Part shown: positions 42,101-45,100 of the stretch, one piece after another | Layout: each line of letters starts with the position of its first letter | How positions within the stretch are numbered: the first letter of the stretch is position 1 | Source: Octopus vulgaris | Lineage: Eukaryota | Direction of reading: 5' to 3' | Assembly (NCBI GenBank): GCA_951406725.2 | Contig: OX597818.1 | Location: 90,210,001-90,274,000, forward strand | DNA: 64,000 nt | Made by a program: the position numbers and the translations under genes | The notes under the pieces: generated by a model | Told to the model about the DNA's origin: nothing | Databases searched by the model: none | Seen by the model: only the letters and a program-made list of their open reading frames with translations

Positions 42101-45100
42101 GACAATGTATTAACTATCATACGTGTTAAAAATGATGTTATTTCTAATATTCCTGTGATATTCGGGCTTTGTGCTTAGAGTAGAAAAGAATATTCCTGTG
42201 ATATTTAATCCTTGTTAGACAAGACATTACTACTATGATGAAATACATTTCACCTGTGGCCAAATTGTCTTTCCTAGTGTTGTAATTCTTCATTTATGTT
42301 AAAAGAACAATTCTTAGATATTTATTGTGATTATGGATGTATATTATATTATGGTTTAATAGGGTTACAATTATTGATAGCATGGTTTAAATATTTAAAT
42401 ATTTAAACATTAAACACTTTATTTCACGTTGCTCCAGTTCACTCAGCTGTAGAAATGAGTTGCGATGTCACAGGTGCTAAGCTGTATCGGCCTTTGCCTT
42501 TCTCTTGGATAACACTGGTGGCGTGGAGAGTGGAGGCCGGTATGCATGGGCGACTACTGGTCTTCCATAAACAACCTTGCACGGACTTGTGCCTGGCAGG
42601 GTAACTTTCTAGGTGCAATCCCATGGTCATTCATGACCGAAGGTAGTCTCAGGTTTAAACATTAAAAGTTGCATGTTTAAGATATTAGTCATACATATAC
42701 AAGAGACAAGTAGATTTCTGAATACAATTTTCCTGAAGAATATATACAGCTTAATGTTAGCGGCACTTCATAAACCGTTTAGTTCTTGTTTGTAACATAC
42801 TAAATAATGTTTCGGATATCTTTTATTATCGATATATCTTAATATCATAATTACTCTTTTCAACTTTAGCATTCAATTAACGACATTATAAGATATCTTT
42901 AATTTTTACAGCGACGTCTTTGTGTATATTCGAGACAAACATCACAGACTGCGAACCCTGCCAGCAAGGTGGCTATTACCCGATAATAGGATCTCTGTCA
43001 GAGTTCTTCCAATGCAGTCATGGTCAATTGGTTCCAATGAAATGTCCAGCGAGAACAATCTGGAATAACAAAATCATACGTTGTGTATACGATCGTAAGT
43101 AGCAACCCTTGCCAAATCTATACTCGAATATGCACAGAATAATTAAGAAAGTACAACAAGATCCATTCTGCTTCTTGAATTTACAGTAGCCTTAAGCACA
43201 CGATAGAAAAACGGATGATTCCTTACGATTGTTAGTTTACTTGTTTTACTTATTGGGCTACATCCATGCTGGGGTTGTTGTCGAACAAATTAGTACCAGT
43301 AATTATTGTAAGTCTGTCTGTATGTTTATATGAATGTATGTATGTATCTTCTCTGTATCATGTCGTTCATGAGAAGAGATTCGATAGATCGCTGTGTTGT
43401 AACTGTTCCACTGATCACATCATTCCGAATAGCGAAGCGAGACGTATGCAAGTGATCCTTTTCCTCTCAATCTCTTCAACAATTGGGCAGGACGGCGCCT
43501 ATGCGATGCCCCAGGATGACAAATCACTGACATCACCATCGCTCGCCGCTGCTTGCCGTGCACGCAACGTAAGTATGGCACGGGTCGAACTAAGGCATGT
43601 ATCTAGAGTTTCAGAAGCTTTTGGAATGCAACTCGGGTCTGGTTACGGTATCGGCTTAGATGCGTTCAACCATTATCCCCCCAGGGGCAGTCTGACACCA
43701 CCACTCTGTCGACCGAGCGCGCAAGGCTTTTCCCTGATCCCGCAGTTTCTTCCATATTGGATGGGAAAGCCGTAGCCGAGATAACGTTACCGATACCCGC
43801 CTTAGATAAGCAGAAGAGTCGGCGGTGCCGGACGACATTCTTGCGTGCCGTAGCCACGTACCTTTTCCCGATTACCCAGGGCACCGATTGCGTACTATGT
43901 ATTTTTACAATATATATATATATATATATATATATATATATATATATATATATACACATACACACACACACACACATATATATATATATATATATATATA
44001 TATATATATATATATATATATATATGTGTGTGTGTGTGTGTGTGTGTGTGTAGTACGTTACTTTTCATCGTGAAAATATGTGCATTTGATAAAAATATCA
44101 AGTGTATCCTTAGTCTTGCAGCTTCAGCATGTTTCTGACGGTAGTCAGACTCGAGTTTCTATTACATACTCACAGAAAGAGAGAAGGTGAGAAAGAAGAA
44201 AAGGGAGACAGAAGATATAAAATTGAGAAGTGGAGTGTAAAGTCCATAAAGAGAAACAAGAGTACATGCAAGTAAATGTTTGTTAATCTCTTTATTAATA
44301 TTTCAGGTTCTCAAGTCTGGTTGCTTACTGATACGGAAACTGGCGTAGGTAAGATGATATATCAGTTTGTTTGATAAATGCTGTTTATCACTGATACTAT
44401 ACGTATTTTCATTTTGTAAAATAAATTGTAGGCTGTCGCTTTCATATCATCTGATCAATCAATCAATCTATCTATCTATCTATCTATCTATCTATCTATC
44501 TATCTATCTATCTATCTATCTATCTATCTATCTATGTCTGTCTGTATATACATACATGTGCATACATGTCTGTATCTGTCTATCTATTTATCTATTTATG
44601 CATCTATACACCCGTCGCGCGCGCGTACCACGCACATATACACATGCACGCACGCACGCATATGCGCCTGCGCATACACACACGCACGTATCACTTATAT
44701 ATCATTTGCTTTTTATCGTCGCGATATTTATGCGAGATATTCAGTGTATCATTATGTTATATATCACAAATTACTGACAGAATTATGATATTTTTCACAG
44801 AAAATGCCGAGGAGATCGCCCGAAGAACTGAAATGAATATTGAATATCCGGAAAGGGAACCGATAAACCCTAACAGTGAGTGGGTTTTCTTGGGATCATA
44901 CTATTCTATTGGATTATTGTATTTAATATCGTTATCCTTTATTAGTTTCAGTTTCACAAGTTGATTCCAGCGTTTACCAATACTTATGCATTTCTACACA
45001 CTGTGCCCTAAATACAACAGAAAATAATCACAAGTGGTGATAACCATCACAACCGATAATCACTAGAGATGATAATCTCAACAATAGTTAATTAGAAGAT

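What the first reader, a model, noticed from the sequence alone, without database searches (positions are those of the whole stretch)
43346..43890. Divergent 28S-rRNA-like segment with apparent compensatory changes and a remodelled sarcin-ricin loop
Seen, compared with the eukaryotic 28S sequence as I recall it: the minus strand is collinear with the LSU 3' end but far more diverged than functional rRNA. The SRL AGUAC-GAGA-GGAAC reads AAUAU-GGAA-GAAAC, still a GNRA loop. Stem changes look paired (CAGA/UCUG to CAGG/CCUG; GAC/GUC to GGU/GCC; CCU/AGG to CCC/GGG). Roughly 90 nt of the conserved peptidyl-transferase-proximal region are missing, and the 3' end runs into an (ATAC)n-like tail. Inference: not a simple decayed rDNA copy, but a structured 28S-derived RNA that evolved under folding constraint. 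It could be a 28S-derived SINE/LINE module (SINE28-like elements are known in mammals) or rRNA from a divergent symbiont or parasite. It is too GC-rich for a mollusc mitochondrial insert.
Basis: partly seen in the sequence, partly recalled or inferred. Interest (0 to 1): 0.75.

Follow-up and report, generated by a model that had tools for sequence, protein, structure and literature searches.

The report
Decaying octopus 28S rRNA pseudogene
A worn copy of the tail end of the large ribosomal RNA gene lies backwards in an intron of an octopus chitin-binding gene; its paired base changes are real but were likely inherited from the octopus's own unusually divergent working rRNA, and it now changes as fast as the intron around it, so it is likely an ordinary rRNA pseudogene rather than a new structured RNA.

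Summary
The segment is real 28S homology: an Rfam LSU hit running to the model's 3' end (E 5e-4, below the family cut-off) and two independent profile hits (E 9e-8 and 1e-6). Compensation is real too: 13 of 14 two-sided stem changes are Watson-Crick pairs (p about 0.001).

It does not behave like a constrained RNA today. It lies antisense in an intron of an Octopus chitin-binding gene and is found at the same place in related species. It changes as fast as the intron (8.7% against at most 8.5%), drifts to AT (12:1), carries indels, has 13 of 58 pairs broken, folds no better than shuffles, and has lost the sarcin-ricin loop's key letters.

A published octopus 28S primer matches its H96 at 15 of 20 bases (canonical 28S: 4-11) and restores three of its four broken pairs there. 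The paired changes were therefore likely made in the octopus's own GC-rich working 28S.

Verdict: a decaying, probably retroposed pseudogene of the 28S 3' end, SINE28-like in anatomy; not a parasite rRNA. The ~90-nt gap is unresolved.

The parts
43346..43890 (-). 28S-derived insert (GC 52%, CpG-rich), antisense in an intron
43790..43890 (-). 5' part, GC-rich, register against 28S unresolved (H89/PTC with a ~80-90-nt deletion, H91-H93, or a lineage-specific expansion segment)
   Evidence: organism F has extra unlaid letters between 43805 and 43812
43630..43782 (-). H94-H97 domain (helix numbers are recalled labels). H94 lower stem 43775-43782 pairs with 43630-43637, with three two-sided Watson-Crick changes
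43737..43767 (-). H95 with the degenerate sarcin-ricin loop (loop 43745-43758). Bulged-G and sheared-pair G lost; tetraloop GGAA here, GGGA in three other species
43682..43736 (-). H96; 43713-43732 matches a published octopus 28S primer at 15/20
43652..43672 (-). H97 apical stem-loop; organisms E and F have a C-G pair where the window has U-G (a CpG change at 43672)
43460..43629 (-). variable expansion-segment-like stretch; about 30 extra letters in organism E and a cluster of differences in F at 43546-43573
43355..43459 (-). 3'-terminal domain (H100-H101), ending at model position 3399 of 3401
43346..43354 (-). 9-nt spacer after the 28S end; completes a U6-box-like word (weak Rfam U6 hit, E 0.053) and is complementary to 43371-43377
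43306..43345 (-). ATAC/ACAG microsatellite, candidate tail
42912..43094 (+). host exon, chitin-binding peritrophin-A domain (CBM_14), AG/GT borders; 98% identical to Octopus sinensis LOC118763360 protein
43910..44051 (.). (AT)n/(TG)n microsatellite just 5' of the insert
46433..46831 (+). frame holding the next detected CBM_14 exon, which places the insert inside the gene

Best explanation
This is a decaying copy of the 3' end of 28S rRNA lying antisense in an intron of an Octopus chitin-binding gene, likely copied from the octopus's own divergent 28S, probably by reverse transcription of the mature rRNA. Two layers explain the look. Layer 1 (inferred): the working 28S of the octopus lineage had already moved away from canonical 28S by compensatory, GC-ward stem changes, and the copy inherited them. 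Layer 2 (shown between species): since insertion, before species A, D, E and F split, the copy has gathered unpaired, AT-ward substitutions and indels at intron rate; this layer likely also wore down the sarcin-ricin loop. The mechanism of insertion is inferred: a LINE reverse transcriptase priming on the rRNA 3' end at a microsatellite-rich site, with 5' truncation. It likely has no function.
For: 28S HOMOLOGY to the mature 3' end.
HOST: exon 98% identical to an O. sinensis protein; 11 CBM_14 hits, all on the + strand, on both sides of the insert.
IN THE GENOME AND SHARED: 20 of 24 listed runs, 6 organism labels, 10 studies hold it or a part. One X2 contig spans 42640-43882 (X2 may be the window's source) and one X10 contig spans 43027-43890; contig depths equal those of the flank (the tool warns depth is no copy number).
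NEUTRAL RATE: organism E 50/574 in the insert against 46/691 in flank with exon and at most 43/508 in intron only (p 0.2 and 0.9); organism F 52/462 against 18/441 (faster, p 5e-5).
AT-WARD DRIFT: of 15 polarised changes 12 are G/C to A/T and 1 the reverse (p 0.003), 5 at CpG.
LOST STRUCTURE: 13 of 58 pairs broken; H94-H97 folds at z +0.6 against -4.0 for functional reference L159.
HOST SOURCE: the octopus 5'-RACE primer of PMC13321053 matches 15/20 at H96, the best match in the window, with 13 of 2000 shuffles as good. The 92 canonical loci match 4-11/20 at that place, and the primer's letters pair with the insert's 3' strand at 11 of 12 positions against 8 of 12 for the insert's own. Four more octopus primers match L159 at only 14-15/20. 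Cephalopod 18S is long, GC-rich and fast evolving (PMC2841657, passages). W-to-S changes are enriched in stems, 23/48 against 12/53 in loops (p 0.012).
Against: The host 28S sequence was never seen here. The link rests on one 20-nt primer whose place in the rRNA I inferred, from a different Octopus species. The same paper says 28S is ~90% conserved over the 0.5 kb round the H88 break and lists octopus probing primers identical to its human ones; taken at face value these would make octopus H96 canonical. Only 40 of 138 substitution rows were shown, the best supported, so the polarised counts are a chosen subset. No convincing target-site duplication: the best shared word is a 7-nt microsatellite word. 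The 5' 100 nt are more diverged than simple decay from a conserved core would predict. Gap placements were partly guided by cmscan alignments, which leans towards pairing; the 31-pair test showed no excess.
Confidence: 0.75

Rival explanations
1. The source was not the main 28S but a second, more divergent 28S-like master (a lost or minor rDNA class, or a 28S-derived SINE or LINE module) that evolved under folding constraint and left a few copies; this locus is one dead copy.
For: Each of the four runs holds other short pieces 81-85% like the insert at flank-like depth (X2 43361-43412 and 43618-43677, X10 43652-43747, X16 43590-43668, X20 43613-43668), where canonical 28S reaches only 62-70%. 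Loop positions are also heavily changed (33 of 94). No high-depth host rDNA contig was laid.
Against: The pieces are short, few and selected by the 80% threshold; other pseudogenes of the host 28S would look the same. One copy in 64 kb, where other interspersed repeats have many. No tRNA-type or other head, and no clean A+B box pair: only loose-pattern hits, 82 nt apart. The octopus primer shares 7 derived letters with the insert.
Confidence: 0.13
2. DNA-mediated insertion of an rDNA fragment (double-strand-break capture) rather than a retrocopy; otherwise the same dead pseudogene.
For: No clear target-site duplication or poly(A) tail; microsatellites lie on both sides and everywhere in the window.
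Against: Homology and high GC stop within 2 positions of the model's 3' end, as in mammalian 3'-LSU retrocopies (PMC4994717 Table 1); a DNA break has no reason to fall there.
Confidence: 0.06
3. An exapted, still functional structured RNA (or intronic regulatory element) derived from 28S.
For: 45 of 58 pairs kept; the tetraloop is GNRA in both forms seen; the locus is kept in at least four species labels.
Against: Rate equal to or above the intron, 12:1 AT-ward drift, a 30-nt indel in E and about 80 nt in F, 13 broken pairs, no folding signal. The four polarised substitutions in or next to H94-H97 fall in unpaired places or weaken a pair; none is compensated by a listed change.
Confidence: 0.04
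4. rRNA of a divergent parasite or symbiont (for example a dicyemid), as contamination or an old transfer.
For: Far from canonical animal 28S (77 of 137 identical to L159).
Against: Joined to the host exon on single contigs in two organisms and held across six organism labels; shares derived letters with an octopus primer; a 24-nt word of it found nothing in JGI metagenomes.
Confidence: 0.02

Closest known systems
Mammalian SINE28 / 3'-LSU retrocopies (Longo et al. 2015, PMC4994717)
   Same: 3' end of 28S ending at the mature end, followed by a simple repeat, low copy, interspersed; listed elements are 70-94% identical to the LSU.
   Different: Here 545 nt (SINE28 at most about 440 nt in Table 1A), tail ATAC rather than A-rich, no clear TSD, no evidence of Pol III transcription, a mollusc host, and a source rRNA that is itself divergent.
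rRNA pseudogenes outside the rDNA array (general; e.g. PMC5555474, listing only)
   Same: Loss of invariant positions, broken pairs, indels, AT-ward and CpG decay.
   Different: Keeps a strong compensatory layer against canonical 28S, here ascribed to the host lineage.
Octopus 28S rRNA with the H88 break (PMC13321053)
   Different: Not a working rRNA: intronic, degenerate sarcin-ricin loop; a 5' end at the break is not shown.
LSU_rRNA_eukarya (Rfam RF02543)
   Same: Collinear over model 3006-3399.
   Different: 25.2 bits against a gathering score of 50; reference L159 scores 265 bits over a similar span.

Membership tests
Functional eukaryotic LSU rRNA (RF02543) | Reaches the family gathering score | tested here: not met
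   25.2 bits against 50
Functional eukaryotic LSU rRNA (RF02543) | Intact sarcin-ricin loop | tested here: not met
   5 of 14 loop letters differ from the Rfam consensus and L159; the host's own loop was not seen
Functional eukaryotic LSU rRNA (RF02543) | Part of a full, high-copy rDNA unit | tested here: not met
   545 nt in an intron, no other rDNA found nearby, flank-level depth
rRNA pseudogene | Homology to rRNA outside the array | tested here: met
rRNA pseudogene | Neutral rate and uncompensated damage | tested here: met
   totals per contig, 40 of 138 rows seen
rRNA pseudogene | Derived from the host's own rRNA | tested here: inconclusive
   One primer, 15/20 and 11/12 cross-pairing; full host 28S not available
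SINE28 | Derived from the LSU 3' end and ending at the mature end | tested here: met
   model 3399 of 3401
SINE28 | A-rich simple-repeat tail | tested here: inconclusive
   ATAC repeat follows, but such repeats are common in the window
SINE28 | Target-site duplication | tested here: inconclusive
   Only a 7-nt microsatellite word is shared; old insertions can lose TSDs
SINE28 | Length of about 500 nt or less | tested here: not met
   545 nt, and likely longer ancestrally
SINE28 | Pol III-dependent transcription | not testable with these tools
   Only assembled contigs were offered; no raw RNA reads
SINE (self-propagating family) | Many near-identical copies from a master | tested here: not met
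   One copy in the window; only short 81-85% pieces elsewhere at flank-like depth
U6 snRNA (RF00026) | Reaches the family score | tested here: not met
   18.3 bits against 44, E 0.053

The most novel reading that the evidence does not exclude
The insert is a retrocopy of the short 3' 28S fragment released by the octopus-specific H88 break: a genomic fossil of that ribosome innovation. Such copies would date the break and preserve an older state of the fast-evolving octopus 28S, possibly including an altered sarcin-ricin region in the host lineage itself.
Probability: 0.15. Interest if true: 0.5.

Novelty: new member of a known kind. Interest (0 to 1): 0.24.

Why it matters
As a dead rRNA copy it matters little by itself. 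Its use is as a dated fossil: an insertion shared by several Octopus species that records what the lineage's unusually divergent 28S looked like when it was copied, and a presence/absence marker. It also shows a trap: compensatory changes measured against canonical rRNA can be inherited from a divergent host rRNA and say nothing about present function. If copies of this kind start at the H88 break, they would date that octopus-specific cleavage from genomes alone.

Tried and rejected
No whole genome is held for this window, so no genome-wide copy count.

Searches that found nothing useful:
- Rfam over 6 kb listed only microsatellite-driven hits.
- blastn of plasmids gave 4 chance hits at E 6.
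- Two viral-contig scans for 28S words gave 39 and 77 loci. One of the first set (L007) held a sarcin-ricin loop; the second set was not examined further.
- An exact 24-nt word of the insert found nothing in metagenomes.
- No RNA holder listed; this is no evidence on expression. Run shares of 0.04 that I did not lay (X13-15, X17-19) are not used.
- Three look-ups of earlier findings returned nothing.
- Eight paper searches listed no description of this locus or of octopus 28S pseudogenes, judged from titles and abstract starts; the library lacks most subscription papers.

Ideas considered and dropped:
- A 78-nt internal duplication suggested by a 9-nt repeat is not significant (p 0.19 and 0.87).
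- The U6-like word is treated as chance: most of it is the 28S terminal strand plus the microsatellite start.
- The frames overlapping the insert have no Pfam hit.
- One search had the outer H96 helix out of register by one base and covered 31 pairs; it showed no excess pairing. Searches are the corrected, larger tests (58 pairs; pairs that are not standard in L159 were dropped).
- Invariant-column counts (18 of 59 changed) are partly by construction, since about 39 columns were the search pattern.
- Organism F is barely covered at 43371-43413; I draw nothing from that.

Full report
What is there. The minus strand of 43346-43890 is a GC-rich (52%), CpG-rich island in 35% GC DNA. cmscan of the stretch alone finds LSU_rRNA_eukarya at 43355-43783, model 3006-3399 of 3401, 25.2 bits, E 5e-4, under the gathering score of 50. 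I fetched 92 genuine eukaryotic 28S loci from metagenomes and built profiles from the 30 that covered the whole region. These hit the 3'-terminal domain (43374-43475, E 1.2e-6) and the sarcin-ricin-to-H97 domain (43653-43773, E 9.4e-8) independently, and nothing else in the window. Helix numbers in this report are recalled labels placed on the Rfam structure lines.

The compensatory changes are real. Against reference L159, 58 helix pairs could be mapped: 20 unchanged, 12 changed on one side and still paired, 12 broken by one change, 13 changed on both sides to a Watson-Crick pair (4 of them by transversions), and 1 broken on both sides. Random change with the same number of substitutions and transition share gives 34 kept and 5.5 two-sided pairs (p about 0.001 and 0.0002). 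Dealing out the observed letters among paired columns gives 37 and 6.4 (p about 0.001). A/T-to-G/C changes are commoner in stems than loops (23/48 against 12/53, p 0.012). Against this, a first test on 31 pairs of H95-H97, with one helix out of register, showed no excess, and gap placement was partly guided by cmscan.

The 5' 100 nt are unresolved. An octopus H89 primer matches there at most 10/20. One indirect hint favours the gap. In organism F two contigs stop at 43805 and 43812 with 38 and 77 unlaid letters. I could not see those letters, and an expansion-segment indel would look the same.

Where it sits. Pfam finds 11 CBM_14 (peritrophin-A chitin-binding) frames among 142 scanned, all on the + strand, from 1608 to 58393. 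One exon is 42912-43094 with AG/GT borders and the next detected lies in 46433-46831, so the insert is intronic and antisense. That exon is 98% identical to Octopus sinensis LOC118763360 and 80% to an Argonauta protein. The host is therefore an Octopus close to O. sinensis.

How it evolves now. 20 of 24 listed runs, under six organism labels, hold the stretch or a part. I laid 4 of them on 42640-43905 at 80% likeness. One contig of organism A (X2, possibly the window's source) spans exon and insert with 1 difference; one contig of D spans 43027-43890 with 26. Contig depth over the insert equals flank depth. In E the insert differs at 50 of 574 letters plus 31 gap letters, the flank at 46 of 691, or at most 43 of 508 without the exon: no difference (p 0.2 and 0.9). 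In F the insert differs at 52 of 462 against 18 of 441: faster, partly from a cluster at 43546-43573. Only 40 of 138 substitution rows were printed. Among them, 15 insert sites where two or more other species agree give 12 G/C-to-A/T changes and 1 reverse (p 0.003; flank 9 to 3), five at CpG. The loop is GGGA in D, E and F, so GGAA is a recent change, and the H97 C-G pair of E and F has become U-G. The insert folds no better than shuffles (z +0.96; H94-H97 z +0.6 against -4.0 for L159). The bulged G and the sheared-pair G of the sarcin-ricin motif, needed for elongation-factor binding (established knowledge, recalled), are gone. This is the picture of a GC-rich foreign stretch sliding towards the intron's composition.

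Where the paired changes came from. PMC13321053 describes a break in H88 of octopus 28S (I read part 1 of 6 of the text, 12 passages, and all four parts of the supplement's text; figures are not held). Its 5'-RACE primer, which must lie downstream of the break, matches the insert at 43713-43732 with 15 of 20, the best place in the 64-kb window; 13 of 2000 shuffles do as well. The 92 canonical loci match only 4-11 of 20 at that place. Put in as the 5' strand of H96, the primer's letters pair with the insert's 3' strand at 11 of 12 positions, where the insert's own strand manages 8 and L159's 3' strand 9: it restores three of the insert's four broken pairs there. Four further octopus primers match L159 at 14-15 of 20 in normally conserved places. 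Cephalopod 18S is reported as long, GC-rich and fast evolving (PMC2841657, 12 passages). So the working octopus 28S is itself divergent and likely carries the compensatory pairs.

Mechanism. Homology ends within two positions of the mature 3' end and is followed by nine letters and an ATAC repeat. That anatomy matches mammalian 3'-LSU retrocopies named SINE28 (PMC4994717, part 1 of 6 and 12 passages; also mentioned in PMC5786205, 3 passages). Retroposition by a LINE enzyme is therefore the likely route, but it is inferred: there is no clear target-site duplication and ATAC repeats are common here. It is not a SINE family in the working sense: there is one copy in the window and only short 81-85% pieces elsewhere at flank-like depth. 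Those pieces are closer to the insert than canonical 28S is (62-70%), which fits sister pseudogenes of the same divergent source, whether the host 28S or a separate master.

Verdict. A new member of a known kind: an old, decaying 28S 3'-end pseudogene, confidence 0.75 including the host source and the retroposed route. The boldest reading left open is that it copies the fragment released by the octopus-specific H88 break. The assembled octopus 28S would settle source, register and break at once.

Noticed in passing
window 1608-58393, + strand: The window appears to be one very long multi-exon gene with at least 11 CBM_14 chitin-binding frames; the matching O. sinensis protein has isoform names up to X50.
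   Followed up: partly
window 8940-12926, + strand: A 1328-codon open frame made of 30-nt repeats coding Gly/Ser/Thr/Gln-rich decapeptides (about 44 near-perfect copies, then degenerate), inside the chitin-binding gene; a candidate structural or mucin-like spacer exon.
   Followed up: no
window 43346-43392, - strand: A 14-nt word matching the U6 ACAGAGA-box region at the junction of the 28S end and the microsatellite (Rfam U6, E 0.053); its last letters also form a 7-bp inverted repeat with 43371-43377, which could be a fold-back at the insertion junction.
   Followed up: partly
PMC13321053 supplement versus L159: Octopus 28S primers differ from a canonical reference at 4-6 of 20-26 positions even in core regions (H86-H89, L1-stalk base), more than the ~90% the paper quotes; the octopus and human probing primer lists are identical.
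   Followed up: partly
window 503-732, 13914-14364, 38834-39071, 48116-48350, 56127-56364: A ~230-nt interspersed repeat family at 84-92% identity, probably a SINE; a second ~440-nt family at 1110-1538, 36907-37347, 50659-51095 and 56888-57341 with an inner microsatellite.
   Followed up: no
window 45025-45545: Degenerate 16/32/96-nt tandem array, AT-rich.
   Followed up: no
window 43190-43294: Organism F replaces 103 intron letters by 59 others.
   Followed up: no
L007:770-1168; L008, L013, L020, L031, L034, L038: An IMG/VR viral contig ends in a eukaryotic 28S fragment, and several others end in a 28S word that looks like a primer or adaptor remnant: likely assembly or library artefacts.
   Followed up: no
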